64,000 nt of DNA, taken from positions 27,546 to 91,545 of IMG/VR virus record IMGVR_UViG_3300045996_000667; one strand, written 5' to 3'. Both the position numbers and the translations under genes were made by a program. Below, one piece after another: positions 5,706 through 31,328 of the stretch. The stretch is from a virus. Lineage: Duplodnaviria > Heunggongvirae > Uroviricota > Caudoviricetes. Numbering within the stretch: position 1 is the stretch's first letter; every line of letters starts with the position of its first letter. The notes beneath the pieces were generated by a model. That model was not told the DNA's origin, did no database searches, and worked only from the letters and a program-made list of their open reading frames with translations.

Positions 5706-5998
5706 TGCCCTGCGTCGGGTGCTACGACCTTGGAGACGTCTGCGCATGCGGATTCTGGGGTGACGACTGCCGTGGCTGTAACGTCGAAAGGCAACCGTGT
5801 TCTACGTGCTGCACTGGCATGTCTGCCCAGACTGTCAACACTCTTGGGCGTGCCGAAACGACTGCGGTGCGCCCAATCCTAGAGTCCGAATCGAAACCGC
5901 CTGCACAAAGTGCAAAACAAGTCCGAAGAATTCTTCGCAGCCCTAATATGCGGCAACTGGCTACGCTGCATCTACTGCAAGACCGTCGAATGGTTTAA
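5705..5998 (+). CDS. Cys-rich small protein
   Basis: ATG at 5705 in frame with track ORF 5570..5998; dense Cys pairs. Confidence 0.4.
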   Translation: MPCVGCYDLGDVCACGFWGDDCRGCNVERQPCSTCCTGMSAQTVNTLGRAETTAVRPILESESKPPAQSAKQVRRILRSPNMRQLATLHLLQDRRMV

Positions 5999-6137
5999 GT
6001 GCGACGAGACGATGTGTAACGACATCGGCCATCAAGTCATCTGCACTAAATGCCAACGCGACAGAGTCATGATTGCCAAGGACAGAGATGAGCGTGTCTG
6101 GCCAACTACCAACAGCTACAACCCACGACGACCTTGA
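5910..6137 (+). CDS. EFFxAL/zinc-ribbon family small protein
   Basis: MQNKSEEFFAAL then CxxC...CxxC. Confidence 0.45.
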   Translation: MQNKSEEFFAALICGNWLRCIYCKTVEWFKCDETMCNDIGHQVICTKCQRDRVMIAKDRDERVWPTTNSYNPRRP

Positions 6138-6423
6138 ATTCTGGGATGCGCTAGCCAACGAGGACCTTGTGTATTTTGAATCGTTCGGGGTATCCGGATT
6201 CACTAGGAGTTTTATAGACGAACCTGCTCCAACCATCAACATGCCAGATGGAAAAAGAAAGGTTCGCAGGGTTTTCGTCAACACGTCCATTACTAAAAGC
6301 ATCTACGTCAACTTTATTGACCGCAAGAACGAGACTATCGCCCACGTTGGCGTGTTCGCAGACAAAACAGCCGCTGTCAACTTTTTCAAAGGCCTAGCAG
6401 AGCATATCGACAAACATTTCTGA
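6073..6423 (+). CDS. hypothetical protein (LEFWDAL motif)
   Basis: ORF track; alternative ATG at 6089. Confidence 0.45.
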   Translation: MPRTEMSVSGQLPTATTHDDLEFWDALANEDLVYFESFGVSGFTRSFIDEPAPTINMPDGKRKVRRVFVNTSITKSIYVNFIDRKNETIAHVGVFADKTAAVNFFKGLAEHIDKHF

Positions 6424-7025
6424 TGAGATTCCTCGTCGCCTGCGAGTTCTCGGGGAAGGTCCGAGACGCCCTGATAGCTCGAGGCCACCAAGCCATCTCG
6501 TGCGACCTCCGACCAACTGACAGACCTGGCCCACACATTCAAGACGATATCAGGAAGGTCAACCTTAGCAAGTTTGACGGCCTGATCGCCTTCCCGCCCT
6601 GCACCAACCTCGCAGTGAGCGGCTCGAAACACTTCAAACACAAGCATCACTTGCAAGAGCAAGACTTGGCCCTCGTCAGGTTCCTGCTCACCGCTGACGT
6701 GCCGCTGATCGCGCTGGAAAATCCTGTCAGCATCATCAGCACGCACATCCGGCGACCTGATCAGATTATCCACCCCTGGCAGTTCGGCCATAAGGCGTGC
6801 AAAACCACGTGTTTATGGTTGAAAGGCCTGCCACCGTTGAAATATACTCGCGTGGTTGGGCCGCCGCCCAAGCGTTGGGAGGACGAACAGGAATGGCGGA
6901 AATGGAACAAGCTCCACCTTCTGGGCCAGACGAAGGACAGGGCAAAGATTCGCAGCACCACGTTCGACGGCGTGGCGCGAGCCATGGCAACACAGTGGAC
7001 ACAGAGGAGTTCTTCGAGTCGCTAG
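6423..7025 (+). CDS. mini C5-cytosine-methyltransferase-like protein (motifs I/IV/VI only, no target-recognition domain)
   Basis: 'ACEFSG', 'DI...FPPCTNLAVSGSK', 'ALENPVS' match MTase motifs I, IV (PCQ->PCT) and VI (ENV); only 200 aa. Confidence 0.5.
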   Translation: MRFLVACEFSGKVRDALIARGHQAISCDLRPTDRPGPHIQDDIRKVNLSKFDGLIAFPPCTNLAVSGSKHFKHKHHLQEQDLALVRFLLTADVPLIALENPVSIISTHIRRPDQIIHPWQFGHKACKTTCLWLKGLPPLKYTRVVGPPPKRWEDEQEWRKWNKLHLLGQTKDRAKIRSTTFDGVARAMATQWTQRSSSSR

Positions 7026-7237
7026 CACCAACTGGTCGACTCTACTGCAATAGATGCCATGAGTTAACAGAACACGCCATGCTAGGTGTTCACAAGTCTA
7101 GACTAGGACCTCTACCTAATTACCAAGCACGATTAGGCAGAGGACAATGGGTACAGGGAAAGTGCATCAAATGCAACTACATTGATTACTGGACAGAGTC
7201 CTCCCTTCAAGAAATGGAAATCGACTACCCACGATGA
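6995..7237 (+). CDS. EFFxAL/zinc-ribbon family small protein
   Basis: GTG-GAC start at 6995; (M)DTEEFFESL...CNRCHE...CIKCN. Confidence 0.5.
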   Translation: MDTEEFFESLAPTGRLYCNRCHELTEHAMLGVHKSRLGPLPNYQARLGRGQWVQGKCIKCNYIDYWTESSLQEMEIDYPR

Positions 7238-7575
7238 AGACAATCCTCGTCAAAAGCAACATCGATCCTGCCTGCCCTCGCCTCTACGTCAGGAATGCTG
7301 TCAAGGAGGATGGCAATGCTGTCATTCTTGACGAGCCTGTCGAGATGGACGAAGGCCCTACCAACGTGGTCAGCATTCACGACTGCTGTCAGTTCAATGC
7401 TGACATGGTGCAAATCATCAACACTCTGCTCGACCAGGCAGAGGAGAAGATTGACATGGCGATCAAGCTGGCAGCCGCCAACCTGCAGCCGCTGGTGCCG
7501 CCGATCAGCCCTGAGGAGGCTGAGAGGATTGCTCAAGATATCATCCTGAGAAAAGAACCAACGGTCTGGCACTAA
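7234..7575 (+). CDS. hypothetical protein
   Basis: ORF track. Confidence 0.5.
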   Translation: MKTILVKSNIDPACPRLYVRNAVKEDGNAVILDEPVEMDEGPTNVVSIHDCCQFNADMVQIINTLLDQAEEKIDMAIKLAAANLQPLVPPISPEEAERIAQDIILRKEPTVWH

Positions 7576-7576
7576 C

Positions 7577-7699
7577 ATGTGGATCTTTATCGACGTTCTG
7601 ATATTCCTCTACATGCTGTTCTGGCCTGAAGGGGCTATCATCTTCGGCGTCGGTTGCCTCATCGTAGTAGGCCTGATAAAGTGGCTGGAGAAGAAATAA
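7577..7699 (+). CDS. small 2-TM membrane protein
   Basis: 40-aa hydrophobic ORF; TAATG coupling to the ligase gene. Confidence 0.35.
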   Translation: MWIFIDVLIFLYMLFWPEGAIIFGVGCLIVVGLIKWLEKK

Positions 7700-8913
7700 T
7701 GCAGACTTGGCCTTTCAAATCTAAGAGCAGCGACAAGGACTACACGACAGTCCTGACAGACGACGGCAAGCTTGGTTGCAACTGCAAGGGCTACACCGTC
7801 CGGCGCGGCGACAGTGTCCGCGAATGCACTCACATGAGGGACGTAATCAAGATACACAAGTTTGACGTGGAGGTGCGAGGCGGCGAGTTCGTCTACGTCA
7901 AGAACCCACAACAGCAGCTTCCCATACTAAGTTCTGAAGGGGTAAAAGTTCAAAATGAAACTGCCCCCTCCAGCGATGTGCCTTTCGGATACATCCAGCC
8001 GATGCTGGCAGAAGCTCTCCTTGATGGGAGTGAACTGAACTACGCCGAATGGCTCGACGCTGTCCGAGTCATGATGGACAAGTATCTGGCTCAAGGATAC
8101 GTCTGCGAGAAGAAGTACGACGGACATCGCAAGATCGTCTACGTAGACAAGAACGGTGTCAGGGCGTGGTCGCGCCCCAAGTCCGGCGCTGGCAAGGTCG
8201 GGTTGCCCAGCCAGCTTCCTTCGCACATCGTTAAGGAACTGCGCCAGCTCGTGACCGGCAGGACCGAAGAACAGAGCGCCTACGGCACCTACGACTGCGA
8301 ACTGGTAGGCGGGTCAGAAACCGACATGTCGTCGGACGTGACTAGGCTCGACAAAGAACATGAGCGCTGTTTGGTCATCTTCGACGTGCTGCACCTGTCC
8401 AACATGAAGGTGCCGAGGTTGCCCTCGGGCAACCAGACCAAGCTGCCCTACAGGTCGCGTCGACAGATACTGACACACCTGTTCAACTTGACAGGAGTCG
8501 GGCTGAAGCATGTCAGGCTATCAGAAGTCATAGACAACGCCACCTTCGATCACGTAAAGAAAATCTGGGACAACGGCGGCGAGGGTGCGATGCTGAAGGA
8601 CCCAGACAGCACATACCAGCCAGGACGACGGTCCACTACGTGGCTCAAGATCAAGAAGCTGGAGCCGGTCCCGTATATCATCACCGGCTACGAGGCTGGC
8701 AAGAACGGACCTTATAGCAAGGTGACGCTCAAGGAGAAGAACAACCCAGCGATCAAGACGTCTGCCAAGACCAAGAACAACGCGTGGTTGAAGCGGTTCG
8801 CGGCTGACCCCGACAAGTATATCGGGGAGGAGCTGGTCTGCATCGTCCGTGGTCGCCATCCCAGCGGAAAGCCTCGCCACTGCATGTGGGATCATCTGGT
8901 AAACTACAACTGA
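7699..8913 (+). CDS. ATP-dependent DNA ligase with N-terminal SWIM zinc finger
   Basis: 'CNCKGY...CTHM' SWIM; ligase motif I 'KYDGHR'; 'PMLAE'. Confidence 0.75.
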   Translation: MQTWPFKSKSSDKDYTTVLTDDGKLGCNCKGYTVRRGDSVRECTHMRDVIKIHKFDVEVRGGEFVYVKNPQQQLPILSSEGVKVQNETAPSSDVPFGYIQPMLAEALLDGSELNYAEWLDAVRVMMDKYLAQGYVCEKKYDGHRKIVYVDKNGVRAWSRPKSGAGKVGLPSQLPSHIVKELRQLVTGRTEEQSAYGTYDCELVGGSETDMSSDVTRLDKEHERCLVIFDVLHLSNMKVPRLPSGNQTKLPYRSRRQILTHLFNLTGVGLKHVRLSEVIDNATFDHVKKIWDNGGEGAMLKDPDSTYQPGRRSTTWLKIKKLEPVPYIITGYEAGKNGPYSKVTLKEKNNPAIKTSAKTKNNAWLKRFAADPDKYIGEELVCIVRGRHPSGKPRHCMWDHLVNYN

Positions 8914-8914
8914 C

Positions 8915-9145: not shown

Positions 9146-9146
9146 C

Positions 9147-9422
9147 ATGACTGGCAAGGTTCGCACCATCTACGACAATCGCTACGTCGTAATGGCTGAG
9201 CGGCATGACGGCTCGACCATCGCTGACAACAACCTCACGGTGCGAGAGGTGTTCGCCTTGGTTGCGACCAGCATGGCCTACGCCAAGCGCGCGACAATCT
9301 GGGTGGACGACGGGGCACCTGTCACTGAGAGCGGCCCCGTTCAGAACATGGAAGACGCGATCAACTGGAAACAGCCTGACGACATCCTGACCGAGATGTT
9401 CAGAGCTAAGGAGGGACGATAG
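9147..9422 (+). CDS. hypothetical protein
   Basis: ORF track. Confidence 0.5.
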   Translation: MTGKVRTIYDNRYVVMAERHDGSTIADNNLTVREVFALVATSMAYAKRATIWVDDGAPVTESGPVQNMEDAINWKQPDDILTEMFRAKEGR

Positions 9423-9423
9423 C

Positions 9424-9669
9424 TTGGCCCGTCAAATCGCACCAAGGCTCGCCAACGGCGAAACACGTGAACCTCTCTACAACGGCCTGCCGCCGGCCAT
9501 CAAGCAAGGCATCGACGCCATCGCCAAGGACGAAAACAAGTCGCGCTCGTGGGTCATCGAGGAGGCCCTAGTTGATTATTTCCGGCTCGCCCGTCTACTC
9601 GGAAGAAAAAAGTACATCATTCCTTCTACGTGGAAGAAACCGACCCGTCGGAAGCTCATCCGGCCATAG
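9424..9669 (+). CDS. ribbon-helix-helix (CopG/Arc-like) DNA-binding protein
   Basis: TTG start; 'SRSWVIEEALVDYF' is an RHH signature. Confidence 0.55.
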   Translation: MARQIAPRLANGETREPLYNGLPPAIKQGIDAIAKDENKSRSWVIEEALVDYFRLARLLGRKKYIIPSTWKKPTRRKLIRP

Positions 9670-9695
9670 CCCTGATGTGCTACCATGTCAGCCGG

Positions 9696-10054
9696 ACTCG
9701 ATGCAGATCCGGCTGGAAATCACAGAGCGTCCGACATCGCGTAAGGCCCCGTCATTCGCTGCTACACCTGAGCGCCTGATTGAGGCTGTCATGTCGACCG
9801 CACCAGGGGGAGAGAACGATGGCAAGGCCGTCAAGTTCGTCAGCGATGACACGAACCTGACACCGCTCCGTCTCAAGATTGCTTACCTCTGCAATAAGGC
9901 GGGCCTCAAACTGCGCAGCCAGAAACTGAGGCCGCTCAACCGCAACATGCGTCGTCAAAAGGACCCCTACGAGGTCCTGCTTTGGGTGGAGGCACCGCGT
10001 GGAACTGGACCTGACCAACCTGACCGTGAAGAAGATTCGGAAAATGACACGTAA
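9696..10054 (+). CDS. hypothetical protein
   Basis: ATG at 9696 within track ORF 9572..10054. Confidence 0.45.
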
Positions 10055-10208
10055 GGAAGCCAGCGACGAAGGCTGGGACGACTACGAAACCAGATCGGTG
10101 ATAGAATTCTCGGACGGGACGCTGATCTACGCGTCTCGAGACGAGGAAGGAAACGGTCCAGGCGCGTTGTTCGGAAAAACCAAGGACGGCAAAGCGTTCT
10201 CACTCTAA
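9999..10208 (+). CDS. hypothetical protein
   Basis: ORF track; alternative ATG at 10044. Confidence 0.35.
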   Translation: MELDLTNLTVKKIRKMTRKEASDEGWDDYETRSVIEFSDGTLIYASRDEEGNGPGALFGKTKDGKAFSL

Positions 10209-10218
10209 GGAAGGTGTC

Positions 10219-10416
10219 ATGGCTGTCGAAACTGCCAGCGCTATTACGTTCTCTGAGGCACGGACAGTGTCAGTCTTCCTGCACGGTCGATTCCATGGGA
10301 CTATCGAAACGATGGGATCACGCTTCGAAGCTGCCACCAGAAGCCAGGTCGCCAAGGAATTCAGCGACTTCGACTCAGCCATGTCTTGGATCATCGATGA
10401 CATTCACGGCGACTAA
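10219..10416 (+). CDS. hypothetical protein
   Basis: ORF track. Confidence 0.45.
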   Translation: MAVETASAITFSEARTVSVFLHGRFHGTIETMGSRFEAATRSQVAKEFSDFDSAMSWIIDDIHGD

Positions 10417-10431
10417 TACACAAGGATTGCT

Positions 10432-10839
10432 ATGAAAGGTTGGCCGCTAGTTCATCCACAGGACGACGGCATTCGACCGGCAGGACCGCCTGACGAGTGC
10501 TTCTACTGTCACCAGAAGGTCGGAAAACCGCATAGCCCTGAATGCGTCATCGTCACACGGCGCGTCAGGGTCAGATACACCTTCGACATCGAGGTTGACG
10601 CCCCCTACCACTGGGACAAGGACGACTTCGAGTATCACCGCAACAACTCGTCCTGCCAGAACAACATGATCGATGACGTAGCTAACTACGCTGCGAACCT
10701 GGCCGATGAGTGCATGTGCGGCAGAGCGAACGCCGAGTTCGTAGGCGTTGTCGACAACACACCACGGCGCGAGACACGTTCCGACGACAACCACCCTGAC
10801 ATACCTTCGGAGTTCAAGACCACTGGACCTGTGCATTAA
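10432..10839 (+). CDS. hypothetical protein
   Basis: ORF track. Confidence 0.5.
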   Translation: MKGWPLVHPQDDGIRPAGPPDECFYCHQKVGKPHSPECVIVTRRVRVRYTFDIEVDAPYHWDKDDFEYHRNNSSCQNNMIDDVANYAANLADECMCGRANAEFVGVVDNTPRRETRSDDNHPDIPSEFKTTGPVH

Positions 10840-10841
10840 CG

Positions 10842-10876: not shown

Positions 10877-11242
10877 GTGATCGAAGATAAACTTACGAAA
10901 TTGTATCGGTCGTTCGTCCTCAAGAACAGCGACAAGCAGCAGCAGCTGCTCCATCTCCCGTGGGAGTGGGTGCTCTGTTACACCGAGGATAGCGAGGCCG
11001 ACTTTCGTGAGGTCCAGCGCGGCGTTCTTAAGCTTGAACTGCTCGACAAGACAGTCAAGGCTCGAGACAAGCGCTACAAAGTTGTCAGGCACAACGGGGC
11101 GGGCTGGACGAGCCTGCCCCGCACGTGGCTCCGCGACCGCAAGGCCAAGGACGGTGACACCGTAGAACTCTGGTTCTCTGACAACGCCACTCGCCTTTAC
11201 GTGATACTCAAGAAGCGGGAAGATGCTGTCAGCAGAAAGTAA
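10877..11242 (+). CDS. AbrB/MazE-like (swapped-hairpin) DNA-binding protein
   Basis: C-terminal '...WTSLPRTWL...DGDTVELWF...LYVILKK' resembles the SpoVT/AbrB fold. Confidence 0.5.
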   Translation: MIEDKLTKLYRSFVLKNSDKQQQLLHLPWEWVLCYTEDSEADFREVQRGVLKLELLDKTVKARDKRYKVVRHNGAGWTSLPRTWLRDRKAKDGDTVELWFSDNATRLYVILKKREDAVSRK

Positions 11243-11795
11243 CGAGTTCACCAACGGAACCAAGAAGCTCGGGGCTATCAACACATTCACCGGCAAGCGG
11301 TTCAACATCCTCGACCCGCAGCCTGACCAGATTGACATTCGTGACATCGCTGCTCACCTGTCAAAGCTATGCCGGTTCACAGGCTCCATTCGCTTTCACT
11401 ACTCGGTAGCGCAGCACTCCTACTACGCTTCCATGTTCTGTCAGCCTGGTTATGAGCTGGCCTGTCTGCTCCATGACGCCGCCGAGGCCTACATGAACGA
11501 CTTGAGCAGGCCGATCAAGCACGTGCCTGAGATGATCTGGTACCGCGAACAGGAACACAAAGTCTGGTCAGTCCTAGCCGACGTGTTCGGCCTGCCAGAC
11601 CCGCTGCCGCCGCACGTCAAGGAAATCGACAACCGCCTCGTCTGCACAGAAGGCTGGCAACTCCAACCGCATCCCAACCCTGACCACTGGTCATTCGCTG
11701 AGCATCTTCCACTGGCGATAGAAGAATGGACACCACGAATCGCGGAACAGATGTTTCTCCAGCGCTACTACCACCTGACAGCAACCCACTCGTAA
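11223..11795 (+). CDS. HD-domain phosphohydrolase (YfbR-like 5'-deoxynucleotidase)
   Basis: 'VAQHSYY...LLHDAAEAYMNDL' H..HD..E motifs. Confidence 0.65.
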   Translation: MLSAESNEFTNGTKKLGAINTFTGKRFNILDPQPDQIDIRDIAAHLSKLCRFTGSIRFHYSVAQHSYYASMFCQPGYELACLLHDAAEAYMNDLSRPIKHVPEMIWYREQEHKVWSVLADVFGLPDPLPPHVKEIDNRLVCTEGWQLQPHPNPDHWSFAEHLPLAIEEWTPRIAEQMFLQRYYHLTATHS

Positions 11796-11956
11796 CAGAG
11801 TTCTTCGAGGCACTAGAAGACTGGTCAGGATGGATGGACATGAACATCTGGTGCAGAGTGTGTGAGGAAGTCGTTCTGAAAAAGGTATATTGGTCGGACG
11901 ACATAGACGTATATCACTGCACAGTGTGCAAGAACGAAGTAACGGCAACGGCATAA
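11726..11956 (+). CDS. EFFxAL/zinc-ribbon family small protein
   Basis: 'LVTEFFEAL...CRVCEE...CTVCKN'; conserved part begins at the upstream TAA (11795); no canonical start there. Confidence 0.45.
   Translation: MDTTNRGTDVSPALLPPDSNPLVTEFFEALEDWSGWMDMNIWCRVCEEVVLKKVYWSDDIDVYHCTVCKNEVTATA
11917..11931. repeat. palindrome variant CTGCACAGTGTGCAA
   Basis: One mismatch from consensus. Confidence 0.7.
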
Positions 11957-14134: not shown

Positions 14135-14398
14135 TTGGAGGCGGCTGTAATGGATATTAGACCTGAAGCCGTGTTCGTTCTGACATTGACTGAAAAAGAC
14201 TACAAACTTCTGTCAGCATGCGTAGCGGTCTGCGCCGGCGTAAAGGGCGTCAGGGTCAACCCCAAGGAGGCCCACGACATGAACCTGAAGATGACTGGAG
14301 TCCGTGAGGCGCACGCCGCTCAGCAGCTAGAGATTGCTCAGGCCGCCCGCCAGCGAGCGCTTACGCACGATCCCATCGACACTCCAGACCTTGGCTAA
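14135..14398 (+). CDS. hypothetical protein
   Basis: ORF track. Confidence 0.45.
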   Translation: MEAAVMDIRPEAVFVLTLTEKDYKLLSACVAVCAGVKGVRVNPKEAHDMNLKMTGVREAHAAQQLEIAQAARQRALTHDPIDTPDLG

Positions 14399-14480
14399 CT
14401 ACACATCGGTCTGCATAGACCATCGCTTCGTCTCCAGAAGCTTATCGCGCCGCTGCCCTCAGTGCCCAGCCACTGACACC

Positions 14481-14741
14481 ATGGAAACTCTATGGCCAGG
14501 TCTGACAGCTCCTGGCCGTTACGACGACAAAGGCTGGAAGAAGCTGGCATCGGCCCTGTTAAGACGTAGGCAGCAACGGAAAGAGATAGCAGAACGTCAG
14601 GCTAGGGATGAATTCAATCGCGGACTGCAATACCGGATCGTTAACCCACTGTCCCGTCCCGTTAAACCCGAACAGTGCCGGCCAGCCAAGCGCCGCGCCC
14701 AGAAAAGACAGCGGGAATTCTGGGACTCGCTTACGAAATGA
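14481..14741 (+). CDS. hypothetical basic protein (C-terminal REFWDSL)
   Basis: ATG at 14481 in track ORF 14334..14741; ATGA coupling at 14738. Confidence 0.35.
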   Translation: METLWPGLTAPGRYDDKGWKKLASALLRRRQQRKEIAERQARDEFNRGLQYRIVNPLSRPVKPEQCRPAKRRAQKRQREFWDSLTK

Positions 14742-15064
14742 ACAAAGACCCTCAGTGGTTTCGAACAGCCACAGGCATGGAGCTGTCGGACTTAAGCGGG
14801 CTACCAGAGTGGTTCTTTAACCGCCTGACGTATCGTATCTCCTTTGGCGTCAGGTACATACTAAAAGACCCCTGCGTTTACTGTATGCGCCGCATGCCGG
14901 CGAAACACAGAGGCCGCAAGGGTATTGGCCGCGACCACATAGTACCAAAATCGCTAGGTGGCCCTGACAGCTGGACCAACAGAGCGCCAGCATGCCACAA
15001 ATGTGACGCGCTCAAGGATCACCAGCCACTTTTAGTCTTCCTAGTTCGTAATCCATTAGCCTAA
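14738..15064 (+). CDS. HNH endonuclease
   Basis: 'CVYCMRR...DHIVPKSLGG...N...CHKCDALK'. Confidence 0.7.
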   Translation: MNKDPQWFRTATGMELSDLSGLPEWFFNRLTYRISFGVRYILKDPCVYCMRRMPAKHRGRKGIGRDHIVPKSLGGPDSWTNRAPACHKCDALKDHQPLLVFLVRNPLA

Positions 15065-17861: not shown

Positions 17862-18158
17862 GAAGGTTGTCCTCACTGGGGACGCCTACCGACAACTGAC
17901 ACGGCGAGTCCTAGCCAGAGATGGCTGGGCTTGCCGTAGGTGTCAGTCCCGCCAGAATCTGCAAGTCCACCACACCTTCTTCAAGCGGTCCAATCTCAGG
18001 ATCGATGAAGACTGGAACCTTTGCACATTGTGCAACGTCTGTCACGACCTGGTAGAAAAACACAAGGTTCTTGTGCTTGGCAGCGACTGCAATGCTGTGA
18101 TACACTTCCGCTGGAGAGAGCATGCCGTACACGAACGGGAACACGACGACTCCCGCTG
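17800..18158 (+). CDS. HNH endonuclease ORF lacking a canonical start codon
   Basis: Open frame '...LARDGWACRRCQS...LQVHH...N...CTLCNVCHD' after the TGA at 17797; no ATG/GTG/TTG until codon ~75; +1 frame relative to the upstream gene. Confidence 0.45.
18021..18035. repeat. palindrome TTGCACATTGTGCAA
   Basis: Inside the HNH ORF. Confidence 0.9.
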
Positions 18159-18682
18159 ACTGGAGTGGGGCCTTCTTCAAGCCAGACATCGAGAAGCTCA
18201 TCAAGAAGTACTCTGGAAAGGGCGGCAGGAGAAAACTCGCAGGGGCTATAGCCCTGAACGCATTCGTCTACCGTCGATACCCCTACCCAGCCGGCTCTCG
18301 AGCCAAGGAGTTCATCCGGCGCGGACGCAAGGGCAAGACGCACCGAACCATGGCCGATGATCCCAAGCCGAAGACGCGGCACACTCGGCAGGACATGATC
18401 GATCTCAAGGCTGTCCAGCGCGTCAAAGTTCGGCTGGCGCTGACAGAGGACGGCACAATCTGGGCGAGGGTCGACATGTTCCTCGACCGACAGAAGGCGT
18501 TCGGTTGGCTGGAATGGAAGGGCGGCTGGCACTTCGTCACCGGAGTCAACCTGAACGACCAGAGGTTCACCATCGAAGGACAGGCAGAAGTATGGCATCA
18601 ACTGGGATTCATGGTCAGGGGAACAGGCGTCAGCCAGACGACTCTCAACTTCTTCCAGGGCCTGAGAATGCTGAAAGAGTAG
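18122..18682 (+). CDS. hypothetical protein
   Basis: ORF track. Confidence 0.5.
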   Translation: MPYTNGNTTTPADWSGAFFKPDIEKLIKKYSGKGGRRKLAGAIALNAFVYRRYPYPAGSRAKEFIRRGRKGKTHRTMADDPKPKTRHTRQDMIDLKAVQRVKVRLALTEDGTIWARVDMFLDRQKAFGWLEWKGGWHFVTGVNLNDQRFTIEGQAEVWHQLGFMVRGTGVSQTTLNFFQGLRMLKE

Positions 18683-18870
18683 AGGACTTCTTTCAGGCTC
18701 TGACACCGTCTATTGAGGACCACTGCCTCAAGTGTAATGGCAATGGCAAACTGCTGCTCGTTGGCGAAGGCCCAGAGGAAGGCGGGCCAACCACACTAGT
18801 ATTCTGCACACTCTGCCAGGAGGTCGACTATTGGGGAACAAAATACATCCTGAGACGTCACGGCATCTAG
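18592..18870 (+). CDS. EFFxAL/zinc-ribbon family small protein
   Basis: 'RVEDFFQAL...CLKCNG...CTLCQE'; motif starts at the upstream TAG (18682); nearest in-frame ATG is at 18592. Confidence 0.4.
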   Translation: MASTGIHGQGNRRQPDDSQLLPGPENAERVEDFFQALTPSIEDHCLKCNGNGKLLLVGEGPEEGGPTTLVFCTLCQEVDYWGTKYILRRHGI

Positions 18871-18872
18871 GC

Positions 18873-19058
18873 GTGGACAACGAGGAGTTCTTTGCGGCGC
18901 TCGCTAAGACATCGGAGATCTTCTGCTCGAAATGCTCCTGCGTAACCGTGTGGGCGTGGTCCCAGGAACTGGAGCATAGATACTGCATAATCGCGTGCAA
19001 TCAGTGCGATCACAAAACCACAGTCAGCCCAGTCATTAGACAACTTTTCGGATTCTAG
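18873..19058 (+). CDS. EFFxAL/zinc-ribbon family small protein
   Basis: GTG-GAC start directly after the TAG at 18870; (M)DNEEFFAAL...CSKC...CNQCDH. Confidence 0.5.
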   Translation: MDNEEFFAALAKTSEIFCSKCSCVTVWAWSQELEHRYCIIACNQCDHKTTVSPVIRQLFGF

Positions 19059-23667: not shown

Positions 23668-23820
23668 ATGACACCATCTGAAAAAGACTACTACCGCTAC
23701 TACGGGGAGACAGCTACAGAATGCTGTGAACAGTGCGGCAGATGGCACGACATTAACAAGAATCCCTGCAACAGGAAACAGGCTGCCAAAGTAGCAGCCG
23801 ACTCTGGCCCCGTCGATTAG
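23668..23820 (+). CDS. small Cys-containing peptide
   Basis: 50-aa ORF 'MTPSEKDYYRYYGETATECCEQCGRW...'; its 3' end overlaps the tRNA-like element. Confidence 0.3.
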   Translation: MTPSEKDYYRYYGETATECCEQCGRWHDINKNPCNRKQAAKVAADSGPVD

Positions 23821-23876
23821 CGGCAGGTCGTGCCCTCTTAGAGGGTGAGACGCGGGTTCGAATCCCGCCGGGGCCG
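23806..23876 (+). tRNA. tRNA-like gene with atypical anticodon arm (possible anticodon UUA)
   Basis: Perfect 7-bp acceptor GGCCCCG/CGGGGCC; T-arm GCGGG-TTCGAAT-CCCGC; anticodon region folds as CCCTC-TTA-GAGGG rather than a 7-nt loop. Confidence 0.35.
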
Positions 23877-23914
23877 TGCTTACACAACGAACGAGGCGTC
23901 ACCGCACGCCTACA

Positions 23915-23950: not shown

Positions 23951-24034
23951 GGGACTGTGGTGGAAAGGCATACACGGCGGTCTTAGGAACCGCTGGGGCA
24001 ACCCGTGAAGGTTCAAATCCTTTCAGTCCCACCA
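23951..24034 (+). tRNA. tRNA-Leu (anticodon UAG), class II
   Basis: Acceptor GGGACTG/CAGTCCC; AC stem GCGGT/ACCGC; loop CTTAGGA; 13-nt variable arm; T-loop TTCAAAT; encoded CCA. Confidence 0.6.
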
Positions 24035-24040
24035 ACTCTC

Positions 24041-24277
24041 ATGGATTACAAGCTTCCTGACGGAACTCGTACTGACTTCCATCTTCTCTATCTCGAGAAG
24101 TGGTCCAAGGCTGCGCAGAAGCTTGACAGCCTGTTCAAGCCGCTCGGGTATCGATGCAATGCATACGATCCTGACTTCTCTATGGTGAGCGACGAGAGGG
24201 TCAACGGCATGAAAATGTACCACTCATTCACGCTACCAGCTCATGTAGCGATGTTCTTGATATCCCAGGTGAAATAG
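24041..24277 (+). CDS. hypothetical protein
   Basis: ATG at 24041 in frame with track ORF 24005..24277. Confidence 0.5.
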   Translation: MDYKLPDGTRTDFHLLYLEKWSKAAQKLDSLFKPLGYRCNAYDPDFSMVSDERVNGMKMYHSFTLPAHVAMFLISQVK

Positions 24278-24278
24278 C

Positions 24279-24515
24279 GTGCGCAAGTATTTGGTTCCCA
24301 GCTTTACCGTTCTAGTAGCGGTCTGTGTTTTCTTCGCTTTCATCCCTACCACCACGGTACCGGAACTGCCGACAAGCCCTGAGGCGTTCATTGCTGATCG
24401 CACACCAAGCGCACCACTCGTTTTCTATTTCAACGAGGTAGTCTTGGAGACGCCGAAGCCACCAAAGCGCAAAGTCCGCGCGACGTACCGATACGAGCGG
24501 CGGTTCGATAAGTAA
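24279..24515 (+). CDS. small secreted/membrane protein
   Basis: GTG start; N-terminal hydrophobic segment. Confidence 0.5.
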   Translation: MRKYLVPSFTVLVAVCVFFAFIPTTTVPELPTSPEAFIADRTPSAPLVFYFNEVVLETPKPPKRKVRATYRYERRFDK

Positions 24516-24521
24516 CAATTC

Positions 24522-24602
24522 GGGGAATTGGCCCAGCCTGGTCTACGGCGCTCGCTTTGGGAGCGAGAAATATCGGGGGTTCGAATCCCTCATTCCCCAC
24601 CA
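24522..24602 (+). tRNA. tRNA-Pro (anticodon UGG)
   Basis: Acceptor GGGGAAT/ATTCCCC; D-arm TGGCCCAGCCTGGT resembles E. coli tRNA-Pro; AC stem CTCGC/GCGAG; loop TTTGGGA; encoded CCA. Confidence 0.65.
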
Positions 24603-24603
24603 C

Positions 24604-24690
24604 GGAGAGTCGGGCTATTGGCTGGCCAAGCAGTCTTGAAAACTGTCGCCGGTAAAACGGCTGGGGGTTCGATTCCCTCACTCTCCGCCA
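24604..24690 (+). tRNA. tRNA-Ser (anticodon UGA), class II
   Basis: Acceptor GGAGAGT/ACTCTCC; loop CTTGAAA; long variable arm CGCCGGTAAAACGGCT; T-loop TTCGATT; encoded CCA. Confidence 0.6.
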
Positions 24691-24698
24691 CTCTTTAA

Positions 24699-24775
24699 GC
24701 CACCGTAGCTCAATCCGGTAGAGCAGCACATTTGTAATGTGACGGTTGCGGGTTCGATTCCTGCCGGTGGCTCCA
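24699..24775 (+). tRNA. tRNA-Thr (anticodon UGU)
   Basis: Acceptor GCCACCG/CGGTGGC; D-arm TAGCTCAATCCGGTAGAGC; loop TTTGTAA; T-loop TTCGATT; encoded CCA. Confidence 0.65.
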
Positions 24776-28799: not shown

Positions 28800-29050
28800 T
28801 GCATACAGACGACCAGCTCCTAGCTTTCAATAACCAGATCGCCGGCAAAGCAGTCAAGTGGTGGGAGGTGCATAGCAGCGCTATGGGCCATGACCAGGAC
28901 GAGCTGTTCTTGCAGCTTAGTGATGGCTCGGTTGTTCGAATCTTCGCAGAACCTAGACAGTTCGGTGCTGCGCTAAGGATCGAGGCTCACGCGCGACTAC
29001 CTATTGGTAGACCGGTACGGAATCTACCGGAGGAAGCGAACAGACAGTAA
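28799..29050 (+). CDS. hypothetical protein
   Basis: ORF track. Confidence 0.45.
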   Translation: MHTDDQLLAFNNQIAGKAVKWWEVHSSAMGHDQDELFLQLSDGSVVRIFAEPRQFGAALRIEAHARLPIGRPVRNLPEEANRQ

Positions 29051-29430
29051 TGCCGTTCTACGCTGGAGCCTTTGACAACAATGCCTTCTACGTTGGCGGC
29101 GTTCCAGTTCCTGGCATGTGCCAAGTCACTGGCTCCTTCTACAACCCAAAGACTGGCCTGAAGATCATGTCTGGCCAGCTTCGGATTACTCCTAACGGGT
29201 TCAAACCGTTCGCCGGCTCTATCATCAGTCCATTGGTTGCCATCGTTGAGATTCCTCTTTCAGGCAATCTCGACTTCTATCTGGCTCCAAGCGAGGATGA
29301 CGGAGTCGACTACACCGTCGAACTCGACCCTGACCCTTCCAGCCCTGTACCACTCGCCATGCGTCCAGGCTACTTCAAGCGGACTTGGGAGATTCCTAAC
29401 CAAGCTTCCATCACCATTGCGGAGCTCTAA
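29050..29430 (+). CDS. hypothetical protein
   Basis: ORF track; TAATG coupling. Confidence 0.5.
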   Translation: MPFYAGAFDNNAFYVGGVPVPGMCQVTGSFYNPKTGLKIMSGQLRITPNGFKPFAGSIISPLVAIVEIPLSGNLDFYLAPSEDDGVDYTVELDPDPSSPVPLAMRPGYFKRTWEIPNQASITIAEL

Positions 29431-29651
29431 TGGGTAGGGCTGCCAGAGCTAACCTCTTGGCCGCTCGGGCAGAGTGTGACGGCGACTGTCGGCGCGAGAA
29501 GAAGCTGACAGAACTGGTCCCTTACCTGTTAGCCACTGACGGTACCCACTACTACGTTTGCACAATGTGCAAGCCCGCCTTCGAGCGAGAATTCATCGGC
29601 CAGCCCATCCGACCCTGTCAGTGCGAACGGTGCTTGACAACCACAAAATAA
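29430..29651 (+). CDS. zinc-ribbon small protein
   Basis: 'CDGDC...CTMCKP...CQCERC'; contains the palindrome at 29558. Confidence 0.45.
   Translation: MGRAARANLLAARAECDGDCRREKKLTELVPYLLATDGTHYYVCTMCKPAFEREFIGQPIRPCQCERCLTTTK
29558..29572. repeat. palindrome TTGCACAATGTGCAA
   Basis: Encodes CTMCK. Confidence 0.9.
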
Positions 29652-29698
29652 ACGTGTATTGTTGTTCCTGTCGATAGTTGACATTGCCCAGGACGGCA

Positions 29699-29740
29699 AG
29701 GCCTGACAGTGCTGGGAGGCTTCTGTCAGGCCTGTTTTTT
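29699..29740 (+). terminator. Rho-independent terminator
   Basis: 10-bp perfect stem GGCCTGACAG/CTGTCAGGCC followed by TTTTTT. Confidence 0.75.
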
Positions 29741-29827
29741 GGCGTAGTATACCGTTAGGGAGGCGGGCCGGTCTGTAGAACCGGCGGCCTAGTGCCTCGC
29801 GTGGTTCGACTCCACGATGCGCCACCA
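29741..29827 (+). tRNA. tRNA-Tyr (anticodon GUA), class II
   Basis: AC stem CCGGT/ACCGG; loop CTGTAGA; long variable arm; T-arm CGTGG-TTCGACT-CCACG; encoded CCA; D-arm assignment uncertain. Confidence 0.5.
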
Positions 29828-29843
29828 ACTTGTGTCTTTAGGT

Positions 29844-29927
29844 GTGGCCGATGGTAGTGTTGGACGCCGAGAGGCCTGCCACCGGACTGTGAATCCGGCC
29901 ACGCGGGTTCGATTCCCGCCGGTCACC
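29844..29927 (+). tRNA. tRNA-His-like (anticodon GUG) with about 12 extra nt in the D region
   Basis: Acceptor GTGGCCG/CGGTCAC with discriminator C; AC arm CCGGA-CTGTGAA-TCCGG; T-arm GCGGG-TTCGATT-CCCGC; 31 nt between acceptor and AC stem instead of ~19; no CCA. Confidence 0.35.
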
Positions 29928-30155
29928 CCTAAGGGCGCAACTGAGTCAGTCGTCTAGAAGCCTAGGATACTCGTCTCCAAAACCTGTGACGCTGGTGCGA
30001 ATCCAGCCTGACTCGCCAATGTATAAATTTCTCGCATTCATCGACGCTGCTTTTTGCGCTGTTAAAGGACACAAGGTCCAGTGGCGAGCAAGCGAAGCCA
30101 AGTGCTGCGTTATCTGTGACACGTGCAACCTTCTGCATTGGTGTAGACAAGTCGG

Positions 30156-30284
30156 ATGAAGCGCGCCCTCTTGCAGCTAGCCGCCTTCATATACGTACTC
30201 ACCTGTGCAACAGTTGCCGTAGTAATCATGGGCATGTGGTTTAAGTACGTTTTCGATCCTGTTATGCGTTGGATTTTCGGATGA
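30156..30284 (+). CDS. small single-TM peptide (MKRA...)
   Basis: 42-aa hydrophobic ORF; ATGA coupling; shares the 14-nt start region CGGATGAAGCGCGC with the next gene. Confidence 0.3.
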   Translation: MKRALLQLAAFIYVLTCATVAVVIMGMWFKYVFDPVMRWIFG

Positions 30285-30946
30285 AGCGCGCAACCTTCCG
30301 CGACTACCTCCGCACCCATCGCCGTCGCTGGTTGTTCCTGCGTCGGCCTTACGGCGAACTCTATCCACGCTGGCAGTTCTGGCGAGGCTATCGTCTTGAC
30401 GGCTTCCTGCCAGACATCTGGTACTACCTGAAGTGCCGCCTCTGGCATCAATACAACGTCGTCAGAGTTGACAGCCTTCACCCAACCTGGACAGACCGCA
30501 GCGAGCTGCTCCTGTATGCCAGCTTTACCATCCTGCGACATGCCGTTGAGCGCGAGGACTGGCTAAACAGCCGCGCCTATTTCATCGACGGCGACGAGTT
30601 CTTGAGATGGGATGGCCGCGATGAATGGCAGGAAGTGGCCACCCTGTATGACTGGTGGGTAAATGTCAGGCCTGCCAGAATCGACCCTACCGAATGGTGG
30701 GCCGATACCCTCAAGGCTCATGGCATGTATACCAGCATGCTTGAGCCTGACGAAAACTACGAGGTTATCGAGCACGCTGATGGCGGATGTACCGTCCGTG
30801 AGAGAGACGTTCCTGGCAATCCTGACAAGAAAGACTACCAGAATCTGATCCTGAGGATGAGTTCTGCCATGGAGCAGGGCTACGAGGATGAGGATGAACG
30901 CATGCTCAAGCGCCTCGCTGAGGTTCGGCTCTACCTGTGGACGTAG
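30281..30946 (+). CDS. hypothetical Trp/Arg-rich protein
   Basis: ATG at 30281 in frame with track ORF 30269..30946. Confidence 0.55.
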   Translation: MKRATFRDYLRTHRRRWLFLRRPYGELYPRWQFWRGYRLDGFLPDIWYYLKCRLWHQYNVVRVDSLHPTWTDRSELLLYASFTILRHAVEREDWLNSRAYFIDGDEFLRWDGRDEWQEVATLYDWWVNVRPARIDPTEWWADTLKAHGMYTSMLEPDENYEVIEHADGGCTVRERDVPGNPDKKDYQNLILRMSSAMEQGYEDEDERMLKRLAEVRLYLWT

Positions 30947-31068
30947 AGGTTGAGGAATTCTTTGAAGCCCTCGGAGCTTGGCGTTGTGCGATCTGCGATG
31001 AACTCGTGCTTGAGCCGTGTGACCCGTTTGATGTCTGCACCAAGTGCTACGGAGAAATCCCAGAATGA
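30937..31068 (+). CDS. EFFxAL/zinc-ribbon module A
   Basis: GTG-GAC start overlapping the upstream TAG; 'VEVEEFFEALGAWRCAICDE...CTKC'. Confidence 0.45.
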   Translation: MDVEVEEFFEALGAWRCAICDELVLEPCDPFDVCTKCYGEIPE

Positions 31069-31189
31069 GTTCTTCGAAGCGCTAGGGATGTGGCAGTGCC
31101 GCGTTTGCGATGAATACACAGACGACCGAAAAGACGATTTATTTCAAGACATCTGCCTCAGATGCTGGGCAGACGTCTACGGCCCCTGA
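31033..31189 (+). CDS. EFFxAL/zinc-ribbon module B
   Basis: 'NEFFEALGMWQCRVCDE...CLRC'; motif begins on the TGA of module A; ATG at 31033. Confidence 0.4.
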
Positions 31190-31328
31190 GTTCTTCGCGT
31201 CCCTCGGCCTGCGGAAGTGCTGCGTCTGTGATGAATACAAGGACAACTGTTCTCCTTGGCGGCGCGGCGGTCCCTATTCAGGATACCGCTTGCTGGAGCA
31301 GGTCTGCGACGACTGCATTCCCTTTTAG
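31110..31328 (+). CDS. EFFxAL/zinc-ribbon module C
   Basis: 'PEFFASLGLRKCCVCDE...CDDC'; motif begins on the TGA of module B. Confidence 0.4.
   Translation: MNTQTTEKTIYFKTSASDAGQTSTAPEFFASLGLRKCCVCDEYKDNCSPWRRGGPYSGYRLLEQVCDDCIPF

What the first reader, a model, noticed from the sequence alone, without database searches (positions are those of the whole stretch)
5910..31328. Family of at least 9 tiny 'EEFFxAL + Cys4 zinc-ribbon' proteins that begin exactly at the upstream stop codon
Members are at 5910, 6995, 11800, 18682, 18873, 30937, 31061 and 31187. Each has the N-terminal motif (E/D)EFF(E/A/Q)(A/S)L within ~10 residues, followed by CxxC...CxxC. Related motifs occur at 2544 (EFFGEL), 6113 (LEFWDAL), 294 (EEIFESL) and as a C-terminal DEFFGALE at 45297 on the minus strand. 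In every plus-strand case the motif codons start on or immediately after the stop codon of the upstream gene, mostly in the -1 frame. Three members have a GTG-GAC start 3-5 codons before the motif (6995, 18873, 30937). Four have no ATG/GTG/TTG there at all (11800, 18682, 31061, 31187). At 30937-31328 three modules follow one another, each shifted +1 and each starting on the previous TGA (...gaaTGAGTTCTTCG...). This suggests translational coupling with reinitiation, possibly at non-canonical codons, or programmed frameshift extensions of the upstream proteins. The conserved acidic/aromatic motif may be a shared interaction peptide. I cannot place the family in any family I recognise.
Basis: seen in the sequence. 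Interest (0 to 1): 0.85.

Follow-up and report, generated by a model that had tools for sequence, protein, structure and literature searches.

The report
Amplified tiny zinc-ribbon phage gene family
One 124-kb phage genome carries at least 33 copies of a tiny, unannotated zinc-ribbon gene with a shared N-terminal EEFFxAL helix; the genes overlap the end of the preceding gene but almost certainly start at ordinary start codons, not by exotic translation.

Summary
The family is real. Eight ORFs in the window encode [E/D]FFx[A/S]L followed by CxxC...CxxC, and third-codon positions vary, so the motif is a translated peptide. An exhaustive profile search led to the far end of the same contig, where 25 more members lie in tandem. 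That gives at least 33 copies in one phage, with no Pfam, PHROG, PDB or isolate-phage relative.

The "starts on the upstream stop codon" pattern is also real and family-wide. The conserved leader (typically ATG-ACN-AAR-TCT-GAG-GAG-TTC-TTC) contains out-of-frame TGAs, so the preceding cistron ends inside the next one's leader, often with a 14-nt overlap.

All 25 array members have a canonical start 3-15 codons before the motif. The four "start-less" window members each have an in-frame ATG 12-31 codons upstream with no intervening stop, which is unlikely by chance (about 2e-4 to 1e-2). No -1 slippery heptamers occur.

Non-canonical initiation or frameshifting is therefore not needed, though I cannot exclude it for m3, m4 and m8. 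The best reading is independent, translationally coupled, overlapping mini-cistrons.

Function is unknown. The motif also sits at the termini of unrelated proteins, which favours a portable docking helix. Interest is moderate.

The parts
5910..6137 (+). m1: 75-aa member. GTG start, leader MQNKSE, EEFFAAL, CxxC...CxxC.
   Evidence: Start context scores like true starts. JGI's gene caller did not call it.
6995..7237 (+). m2: 80-aa member. GTG-GAC start 4 codons before EEFFESL. The upstream gene 6423..7025 ends in the +1 frame across the Leu codon (CTA-G).
11726..11956 (+). m3: member with motif at 11798. The most likely start is ATG-GAC at 11726 (24-codon leader, 70-nt overlap with gene 11223..11795). 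The upstream TAA overlaps GTA-ACA just before the motif.
   Evidence: The leader's codon usage is coding-like (P = 0.03 against stop-free off-frame segments). The start context is only middling.
18592..18870 (+). m4: member with motif DFFQAL at 18685. Candidate starts are ATG 18592 (31-codon leader) and TTG 18505 (60 codons). It overlaps the 3' end of gene 18122..18682.
   Evidence: It is 36% identical to array member P0127, and the alignment reaches 9 residues into the leader. The leader's codon usage is not coding-like. m4 and m5 are absent between the orthologous genes in relative L004.
18873..19058 (+). m5: 61-aa member. GTG-GAC start 2 nt after m4's TAG; EEFFAAL.
   Evidence: Closest paralogue is P0125.
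30937..31068 (+). m6: 43-aa member. GTG-GAC start overlapping the TAG of gene 30269..30946; EEFFEAL.
   Evidence: JGI called it, as P0001.
31031..31189 (+). m7: member with motif at 31067 (T-GAG overlaps m6's TGA). The likely start is ATG 31031, giving leader MSAPSATEKSQN, which resembles MSSVQTTKSE of array member P0125.
   Evidence: Against m6, the EFFEALG stretch has five synonymous and no non-synonymous differences. The ATG's start context is poor.
31110..31328 (+). m8: member with motif at 31188 (T-GAG overlaps m7's TGA; m7 ends CCC TGA). The likely start is ATG 31110 (26-codon leader, 80-nt overlap).
   Evidence: JGI called it from this ATG, as P0002. The leader's codon usage is coding-like (P = 0.012). 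The ATG's start context is poor.
6088..6423 (+). Protein without a zinc ribbon (111 aa from ATG 6088) carrying N-terminal LEFWDAL. The motif's GAA overlaps m1's TGA (CTT-GAA).
   Evidence: JGI called it from 6088. No Pfam or PHROG family.
2544..2867 (+). 107-aa protein with an N-terminal motif variant, AGEFFGEL. A weaker, peripheral case.
45297..45593 (-). 98-aa Cys-rich protein that ends in ...CQWCRRPLDKNDEFFGALE; the motif is at the C-terminus.
18647..18664 (+). NFFQGL near the C-terminus of the 186-aa gene upstream of m4. It is a 14/18-nt direct repeat of m4's motif codons, 38 nt upstream and in the other frame.
   Evidence: The ortholog in L004 has no such motif there.

Best explanation
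**What it is (shown).** This is a lineage-specific, heavily amplified family of tiny proteins, about 43-95 aa each. There are 8 copies in the window and 25 more in a tandem array at the end of the same 124-kb phage contig. Each protein has three parts:
- a short Ser/Thr/Lys/Asp-rich leader;
- an acidic-aromatic amphipathic helix, (S)-E-E-F-F-x-A-L;
- a four-cysteine zinc ribbon, predicted to fold as a small beta-barrel.

**How the genes are arranged (shown for 29 of the 33; inferred for m3, m4, m7 and m8).**
- Each is its own cistron with an ordinary ATG, GTG or TTG start.
- That start lies inside the 3' end of the preceding gene.
- The leader and motif codons carry out-of-frame stops. These are ATGA, xCT-GAR (giving TGA) and CTN-R across the Leu codon.
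- Because of these stops, the preceding cistron ends within the next one's leader or motif, whichever frame it arrives in.
- This is why the motif seems to begin on the stop codon, and why consecutive modules usually step +1 in frame.

**How they are expressed (inferred).**
- Expression is probably by translational coupling: the terminating ribosome reinitiates at the nearby upstream start.
- The genome uses almost no Shine-Dalgarno sequences.
- The window members without a nearby start (m3, m4, m7, m8, and the EFWDAL protein at 6088) use ATGs 12-31 codons upstream, giving longer leaders and overlaps of 38-91 nt.

**What they do (inferred, low confidence).**
- The terminal EEFFxAL helix is a portable docking element for one common partner, phage or host.
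- The variable zinc ribbons are diversified binding or effector surfaces of accessory early genes.
- A purely structural helix that caps the barrel is the main alternative.
For: **The family is real and the motif is a peptide.**
- In the motif codons, first and second positions are invariant or nearly so. Third positions mostly vary (GAG/GAA, GCN, CTN; second Phe codon TTC/TTT), except the first Phe codon, which is TTC in all 33 members.
- Conserved alignment columns are F, F, L and the cysteines.
- Member bodies score as coding in the motif frame.

**Size and location of the family.**
- The exhaustive profile search found P0125.
- Its contig carries 25 members.
- That stretch is identical to positions 109,859-124,145 of the window's own contig.

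**The starts are ordinary.**
- All 25 array members have a canonical start 3-15 codons before the motif, and after the in-frame stop.
- The chance of meeting a canonical start before a stop, walking upstream in an off-frame, is 0.55 or 0.25 depending on frame. For ATG alone it is 0.31 or 0.08.
- All five window cases nevertheless have an upstream in-frame ATG.
- The m3 and m8 leaders have coding-like codon usage.
- m3 starts ATG-GAC, like the GTG-GAC of m2, m5 and m6. m7's leader resembles P0125's.

**The junction is conserved.**
- In the array, the previous gene's stop (TGA, or TAA in two members) sits at offset -4 in 16 of 25 members.
- A +2-frame stop lies within 13 nt of the motif in 24 of 25 members.
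- A stop in the other frame sits at +16 in 11 of 25 members.
- The synonymous third position of codon -2 is T in 19 of 33 members.

**Context and fold.**
- Confident genes show no Shine-Dalgarno sequence, and 1-8-nt stop/start overlaps are common throughout.
- The AlphaFold2 model of P0125 has mean pLDDT 82. It shows helix 8-17 (the motif) and then beta strands.
- The only solved-structure matches are generic zinc ribbons, with RPA12 at E = 1.8e-4.

**The motif is portable.**
- It occurs on unrelated bodies: window 6088..6423, and L092 8182..8445, whose body matches phrog_11912.
- It also occurs on L092 8796..9170.
- It sits at the C-terminus of ORF 45297..45593 (-) and near the C-terminus of gene 18122..18682.
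Against: - The leaders of m3, m4 and m8 (24, 31 and 26 codons) are longer than any in the array, where the maximum is 15.
- m4's leader scores like off-frame sequence.
- A weak start-context matrix puts the candidate ATGs of m7, m8 and the 6088 gene among decoy ATGs, at the 11th, 15th and 35th percentiles.
- Overlaps of 70-91 nt exceed what published work describes for coupling. The title and abstract of PMC10666635 say coupling requires overlaps or very short intergenic distances.
- All 33 members come from one genome, so junction conservation has not been tested in an independent lineage.
- There are no expression data, and no partner for the motif is known.
- The helix may simply be part of the fold; its pLDDT is about 76.
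Confidence: 0.72

Rival explanations
1. Some members (m3, m4, m8, perhaps m7 and the 6088 gene) have no functional canonical start. Ribosomes that terminate on the embedded stop would reinitiate right there on a non-canonical codon. Candidates are GTA overlapping TAA/TAG in m3 and m4, and ACG in m7 and m8.
For: - There is no ATG, GTG or TTG within 11 codons of the motif in these members. In all of them the stop abuts the motif within 0-2 codons.
- GTAA and GTAG mimic the ATGA overlap geometry in m3 and m4, and also in m6.
- ACG lies at -5 and -3 in m8 and at -6 in m7.
- The upstream ATGs of m7 and m8 have poor start contexts.
- m4's leader looks like off-frame sequence.
Against: - All five cases keep an open frame back to an ATG. 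The joint chance is about 2e-4 for ATG alone and about 1e-2 for any canonical start.
- All 25 array paralogues use nearby canonical starts with the same junction.
- From my own knowledge, GTA is not a known efficient initiator.
- The m3 and m8 leaders are coding-like.
Confidence: 0.1
2. Programmed frameshifting fuses modules to the upstream protein. This would be -1 for m3 and m4, and +1 at the TGA for m7 and m8, giving for example an m6-m7-m8 three-module protein.
For: - Geometry: skipping the T of TGA puts the ribosome in the motif frame at every +1 junction.
- m7 ends CCC TGA. From my own knowledge this is a +1-shift-prone context.
- The phage encodes tRNA-Pro(UGG).
Against: - No X_XXY_YYZ heptamer lies within 120 nt upstream of m3 or m4.
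- m6 ends GAA TGA, which allows no re-pairing.
- Every array module keeps its own start codon, which fusion would make unnecessary.
- The upstream in-frame ATGs are retained.
- The frame relation follows from the conserved xCT-GAR codons alone.
Confidence: 0.04
3. The members without a nearby start are decaying copies that have lost their start and are no longer expressed.
For: - They are the minority (4 of 33).
- One array member is clearly truncated: L094 13891..13980, 29 aa.
- m4's leader is not coding-like.
Against: - All four keep both CxxC pairs, the motif and intact ORFs, and their bodies score as coding.
- m6 against m7 shows only synonymous changes across EFFEALG.
- m4 retains 36% identity to P0127 over its whole body.
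Confidence: 0.07
4. The conserved element acts at the DNA or RNA level, for example as a recombination linker for cassette insertion or a regulatory site, and the peptide is incidental.
For: - m4 and m5 are an insertion relative to L004, and a partial motif repeat sits in the upstream gene.
- The motif heads unrelated genes.
- The first Phe codon is TTC in 33 of 33 members.
Against: - Third-codon positions vary freely while first and second positions are fixed.
- The element is always in frame with an ORF and at a protein terminus.
- TTC-only is simply explained by avoidance of T5-6 runs.
Confidence: 0.04

Closest known systems
Small four-cysteine zinc-ribbon proteins (TFIIS/RPA12-type ribbons and the many uncharacterised phage zinc-ribbon ORFans)
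   Same: Two CxxC knuckles on beta hairpins. There is a weak profile match to the RPA12 C-terminal ribbon (E = 1.8e-4). The model has beta strands around the Cys pairs. The BFVD near-matches are uncharacterised small phage proteins.
Translationally coupled overlapping gene pairs (ATGA/TGATG type; PMC6728339, PMC10666635)
   Same: Co-directional cistrons whose stop and start overlap. ATGA or TTGA overlaps occur at several array junctions and throughout this genome.
   Different: The most common overlap here is 14 nt, and possibly 38-91 nt in the window. The stop is embedded in conserved codons of the next protein's leader, and the arrangement is repeated through a paralogue array.
prfB-type +1 programmed frameshift at an in-frame UGA (own knowledge)
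   Same: A UGA stop with the continuing frame at +1. m7 ends CCC UGA.
   Different: I saw no Shine-Dalgarno-like stimulator, though I ran no targeted scan. The downstream modules have their own starts, and m6 ends GAA UGA.
FFAT motif (EFFDAxE in an acidic tract, which binds eukaryotic VAP; own knowledge)
   Same: The sequence looks alike: EFFDAL (L092 8203) and EFFEALE (m3). Both are acidic-aromatic and sit in an exposed terminal position.
   Different: The host is a prokaryote (tailed-phage terminase and capsid). No VAP/MSP-domain partner is known here. This is a resemblance only.
Terminal docking peptides of bacterial and phage proteins (SSB C-terminal tip, clamp-binding motifs; own knowledge)
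   Same: A short acidic-hydrophobic peptide at the extreme N- or C-terminus of many otherwise unrelated proteins.
   Different: The consensus is different, and no partner has been identified.
DUF35-type proteins: 'xFWEGL' followed by a rubredoxin-like zinc ribbon
   Same: A cellular protein picked up by chance (L152) reads EFWEGL...CHRC...CPHC, which is the same helix-then-ribbon order.
   Different: The family shows no Pfam match at E <= 1. DUF35 proteins continue into an OB-fold domain (own knowledge).

Membership tests
C4 zinc ribbon | Two CxxC (or CxxC-like) knuckles separated by a variable loop | tested here: met
   The cysteine columns are invariant or nearly so in 8- and 32-sequence alignments. 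A few array members have a degenerate first knuckle.
C4 zinc ribbon | Knuckles carried on beta hairpins | tested here: met
   AlphaFold2 model with pLDDT 82 and strands at 21-26, 31-40, 49-54 and 60-64.
C4 zinc ribbon | Sequence similarity to solved ribbons | tested here: inconclusive
   Best matches are RPA12 at E = 1.8e-4 and other generic ribbons. They cover the ribbon part of the profile (starting at position 13 or later), not the motif.
C4 zinc ribbon | Binds zinc | not testable with these tools
   Needs metal analysis of purified protein.
Programmed -1 ribosomal frameshift | Slippery heptamer X_XXY_YYZ in the upstream frame before the junction | tested here: not met
   None within 120 nt upstream of m3 or m4.
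Programmed +1 frameshift (prfB-like) | Shift-prone last sense codon before an in-frame stop | tested here: inconclusive
   m7 ends CCC TGA and m1 ends CCT TGA, but m6 ends GAA TGA.
Programmed frameshift (either sign) | The downstream frame has no initiation codon of its own | tested here: not met
   All members have in-frame canonical starts after the last in-frame stop.
Translationally coupled overlapping cistrons | Co-directional genes with an overlapping or abutting stop and start | tested here: met
   Overlaps of 14 nt are the most common in the array, and ATGA/TTGA overlaps also occur. In the window, overlaps are -2 to 37 nt for m1, m2, m5 and m6.
Translationally coupled overlapping cistrons | Downstream translation depends on upstream translation | not testable with these tools
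   Needs reporter assays with premature stops placed in the upstream cistron.
FFAT motif | E-F-F-D-A-x-E core in an acidic tract | tested here: inconclusive
   Some members fit (EFFDAL, EFFEALE). The family consensus is EEFFxAL, with Leu conserved at position x and no conserved final Glu.
FFAT motif | Binds the MSP domain of VAP proteins | not tested
   No partner search was possible. The host is prokaryotic.
Any curated protein family (Pfam, PHROGs) | Score above the family threshold | tested here: not met
   No Pfam hit above cut-off. No PHROG hit for the zinc-ribbon members.

The most novel reading that the evidence does not exclude
The conserved leader/motif junction may be a dedicated 'stop-and-go' element. 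Ribosomes terminating on the TGA or TAA embedded in xxT-GAR or GTA-A/G would resume translation of the next module without a canonical start codon, or would shift +1 to make multi-module proteins. On this reading the far-upstream ATGs of m3, m4, m7 and m8 are not used.
Probability: 0.1. Interest if true: 0.85.

Novelty: new variant of a known kind. Interest (0 to 1): 0.45.

Why it matters
- **Hidden genes.** A 124-kb phage spends about 7 kb on one family of tiny proteins that automatic annotation largely misses. JGI called two of the eight window members (m6 and m8). It did not call m1, m2, m4, m5 or m7, and I did not check m3. It also called antisense ORFs over part of the array.
- **Likely role.** The family's size, its divergence (about 25-35% identity) and its position suggest a rapidly diversifying set of accessory or host-interaction proteins. 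It sits next to an integrase, a repressor-like S24 peptidase and NAD-salvage genes.
- **Experimental handle.** The invariant terminal EEFFxAL helix also appears on unrelated proteins. It gives a direct way, by peptide pull-down, to find a common partner.
- **Translation model.** The junction carries stops for both alternative frames inside a 15-nt leader. It is a compact natural system for studying termination-reinitiation in a genome that hardly uses Shine-Dalgarno sequences.
- **General caution.** Motif-at-stop-codon patterns can arise from overlapping cistrons, without any recoding.

Tried and rejected
**Searches that found nothing useful**
- Megablast of 20 kb against 50,697 phage records: no match.
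- The search for related loci with the helicase and with the 225-aa gene in IMG/VR: nothing.
- Word-indexed protein searches with the 8- and 32-sequence profiles found mostly proteins of this same phage. The only outside hit was one homolog on a 1.2-kb contig; one further hit sits on a 125.7-kb sister contig.
- Two DNA patterns for the motif plus ribbon were scanned across IMG/VR, JGI metagenomes and 185k genomes. Of 8, 78, 3 and at least 120 hits, all were chance. Only one had in-frame Cys pairs, and that was a DUF35-like cellular protein.
- tblastn of P0125 against isolate phages: nothing.

**Comparators that were unavailable or uninformative**
- Syntenic relatives found through the helicase (L004 and L005, 53% identity) lack m4 and m5, and have no motif in 22 kb.
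- The DNA of the 67%-identity relative, of P0005, of P0128 and of P0132 was not retrievable. No independent junction could therefore be compared.
- The 'second phage' contig turned out to be identical to the end of the window's own contig.

**Ideas considered and dropped**
- A Shine-Dalgarno reading of GAGGAG: this genome shows no Shine-Dalgarno use.
- Stop-codon recoding through the tRNA with anticodon UUA: it does not change frames, and long ORFs are intact under table 11.
- The first structure prediction, from 8 sequences, was too weak to use (pLDDT 61).
- The afdb50 fold library was unavailable.

Full report
**Source and setting**

The window is positions ~18,564-82,563 of a 124,145-bp JGI metagenome contig (Ga0456369_0000067, sample 3300044648). 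Identical copies exist in a Logan assembly and a sibling sample. It is a tailed phage:
- it has a large terminase, an HK97-like capsid and very long tail proteins;
- it carries eight tRNAs;
- it is densely packed with co-directional genes whose stops and starts commonly overlap by 1-8 nt;
- it shows essentially no Shine-Dalgarno sequences.

No isolate phage is close. The best terminase match is 36% identity, to Tunturiibacter phage Tunturi_4.

Yes, for the family.
- Eight plus-strand ORFs encode [E/D]FFx[A/S]L followed by CxxC...CxxC, at the stated places.
- The DNA pattern GARTTYTTY occurs 15 times against 2.8 expected.
- Across 33 members, first and second codon positions of the motif are invariant or nearly so. 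Third positions mostly vary: GAG 22, GAA 9, GAC 2; all four GCN; CTN; the second Phe codon is TTC or TTT. The one exception is the first Phe codon, TTC in all 33.
- m6 and m7 differ by five synonymous and no non-synonymous changes across EFFEALG.

So the motif is a translated peptide under selection, not a DNA repeat or low-complexity sequence. The member bodies also score as coding in that frame.

The junction claim is also correct. The upstream gene's stop lies within 17 nt of the motif in all eight. In m3, m4, m7 and m8, and in the EFWDAL gene at 6088, it lies within two codons.

- Word-indexed searches found only the phage's own proteins.
- An exhaustive HMM scan of 1.8 billion representatives found P0125, MSSVQTTKSEEFFQALSK...CDGC...CTRC.
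- Its 34-kb contig carries 25 members packed between ~5.5 and 14.4 kb of locus L094.
- That stretch is base-for-base identical to positions 109,859-124,145 of the window's own contig.
- The phage therefore has at least 33 zinc-ribbon members. This is a lower bound, because I could not fetch 1-8,856 and 91,473-106,475.
- The array lies next to an integrase, an S24 peptidase, NUDIX and NAMPT genes, cREC_REC and YAcAr genes.

The motif with its leader also heads proteins that have no zinc ribbon:
- window 6088..6423;
- L092 8182..8445, whose body matches phrog_11912;
- L092 8796..9170.

It also closes two proteins at their C-terminal end: DEFFGALE in ORF 45297..45593 (minus strand), and NFFQGL in the 186-aa gene just upstream of m4.

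**What the array says about starts and junctions**

- Every one of the 25 array members has a canonical start 3-15 codons upstream of the motif and after the last in-frame stop. Most often it is ATG at -5, giving M-T-K-S-E-EFFQAL.
- If starts were irrelevant, the chance of meeting one before a stop is about 0.55 or 0.25 per case, depending on frame. All 25 having one by chance is therefore negligible.
- The modules are independently initiated cistrons.

The stop/motif abutment is nonetheless family-wide.
- In 16 of 25 members, the preceding gene's stop (TGA, or TAA in two) sits at offset -4, formed by the last base of codon -2 and the first two bases of codon -1 (xCT-GAR).
- In 24 of 25 members, a stop in that frame lies within 13 nt of the motif.
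- In 11 of 25 members, the other frame has a stop across the Leu codon, at +16.
- Several members use ATGA or TTGA overlaps at the start codon itself.
- The synonymous third base of codon -2 is T in 19 of 33 members, although that codon encodes Ser, Ala, Thr or Pro. This is the signature of selection for the overlapping stop.

Consecutive modules therefore usually step +1 in frame. There are six successive +1 steps from 9319 to 10432, exactly as in m6, m7 and m8. The most common overlap is 14 nt.

The conserved leader thus ends an incoming cistron from either alternative frame within reach of its own start codon. This is the layout expected for termination-reinitiation coupling (PMC6728339, PMC10666635). 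Coupling itself is inferred, not shown.

**The four 'start-less' members**

Each has an in-frame ATG upstream with no stop in between. So does the 6088 gene.

| Member | ATG position | Codons before the motif |
|---|---|---|
| m3 | 11726 | 24 |
| m4 | 18592 (also TTG 18505) | 31 |
| m7 | 31031 | 12 |
| m8 | 31110 | 26 |
| 6088 gene | 6088 | 16 |

Evidence for these ATGs:
- For ATG alone, the per-case chance of this is 0.08 in the -1 frame and 0.31 in the +1 frame, about 2e-4 jointly. For any canonical start it is about 1e-2.
- The m3 and m8 leaders have gene-like codon usage (P = 0.03 and 0.012 against stop-free off-frame segments).
- m3 begins ATG-GAC, like the GTG-GAC of m2, m5 and m6.
- m7's leader MSAPSATEKSQN resembles MSSVQTTKSE of P0125.
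- m4 aligns with array member P0127 into the leader: PGPENA-ER against PSPETAADR. This is weak, because that stretch also overlaps a conserved part of the upstream gene.

Evidence against:
- The leaders of m3, m4 and m8 are longer than any in the array.
- m4's leader looks off-frame.
- A weak start-context matrix rates the m7 and m8 ATGs like decoys.

No -1 slippery heptamers precede m3 or m4. Only m7's CCC TGA is a plausible +1 site. I put about 0.8 on ordinary upstream starts, 0.1 on stop-linked non-canonical reinitiation, and a few per cent each on frameshift fusion or dead copies.

**What the proteins are**

- There is no Pfam, PHROG or isolate-phage match.
- The PDB profile search gives only generic zinc ribbons, matching the ribbon part of the profile rather than the motif.
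- With a 15-sequence alignment, AlphaFold2 models P0125 at pLDDT 82. It shows a helix over residues 8-17 (the motif), a small beta-barrel built from strands around the Cys knuckles, and short helices at 42-47 and 65-70.

F, F, A and L fall on one face of the helix (my inference). The small residue at position 4 suggests close packing, either onto the protein's own barrel or into a partner's groove. The motif is strictly terminal and sits on unrelated bodies and at C-termini. I therefore favour a portable docking helix (about 0.55) over a purely structural cap (about 0.3). The resemblances to FFAT motifs and to terminal docking peptides such as the SSB tip come from memory and are leads only.

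**Origin**

In relatives L004 and L005 (helicase 53% identical), the ortholog of the 186-aa gene is followed directly by the helicase. m4 and m5 are therefore an insertion. The partial motif repeat in the upstream gene's tail may be a scar of that event. This is one case only.

**Verdict**

This is a real and unusually amplified new family of tiny zinc-ribbon proteins, with a conserved terminal helix and a conserved overlapping-junction design.

Noticed in passing
window 23805-23877 (and 23951-24775, 29741-30018): The phage encodes a tRNA with anticodon UUA (an ochre-suppressor type). It also encodes tRNA-Leu(UAG), Pro(UGG), Ser(UGA), Thr(UGU), Tyr, His and Trp. Long ORFs are intact under table 11, so wholesale TAA recoding seems unlikely. 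The suppressor's role is unexplained.
   Followed up: partly
L094/L098 1-8600 (contig ~109.9-118.4 kb): Next to the 25-member array lie NUDIX and NAMPT genes (an NAD-salvage pair), a tyrosine integrase on the opposite strand, an S24 peptidase (repressor-like), and cREC_REC and YAcAr domain genes. Together these look like an accessory, lysogeny or counter-defence region.
   Followed up: no
window 18647-18664 vs 18685-18702: A 14/18-nt direct repeat. The C-terminal NFFQGL of the 186-aa gene duplicates m4's DFFQAL codons 38 nt upstream and in a different frame. The L004 ortholog lacks it. It may be a recombination scar from insertion of the m4-m5 cassette.
   Followed up: partly
window 5704-5946: Upstream of m1, two Cys-rich ORFs overlap in successive -1 frames. 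One runs from 5704 in frame 2 (MPCVGCYDLGDVCACGFWGDDCRGC...), starting on a TAATG overlap. The other is 5797..5946 in frame 1 (...CPDC...CTKC). Coding scores do not say which is real.
   Followed up: partly
L004/L005 16311-16667: The syntenic relatives encode a 118-aa RF-1 domain protein (PF00472, peptidyl-tRNA hydrolase/release-factor domain). I did not look for a counterpart in the window.
   Followed up: no
window 5910-7237, 18592-19058, 31031-31189; L094 13305-14415: The JGI gene caller missed m1, m2, m4, m5 and m7. It also called minus-strand ORFs over the last array members; these read WKNSSELV, the reverse complement of the motif. Two runs on identical DNA (L097 and L098) gave different calls.
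   Followed up: yes
33 family members (window + L094): The first Phe codon of the motif is TTC in 33 of 33 members, against 83% TTC genome-wide. The second Phe codon is TTC, TTT or TGG. This probably reflects avoidance of a T5-6 run.
   Followed up: partly
L092 6446-7309; window 7654-8913, 35680-36978: The phage carries a Ku homolog together with a DNA ligase and an RNA-ligase-family gene (an NHEJ-like set). It also has an SF2 helicase and a primase-helicase.
   Followed up: no
L152 1376 (Dehalococcoidia MAG contig): A cellular DUF35-like protein, picked up by chance, reads EFWEGL...CHRC...CPHC. It has the same helix-then-zinc-ribbon order as the phage family, without detectable homology.
   Followed up: no
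window 14334-14741: An Arg-rich ORF ends in ...REFWDSLTK, a motif-like C-terminus. It overlaps an HNH endonuclease ORF (14675..15064). Whether it is a real gene is unclear.
   Followed up: no
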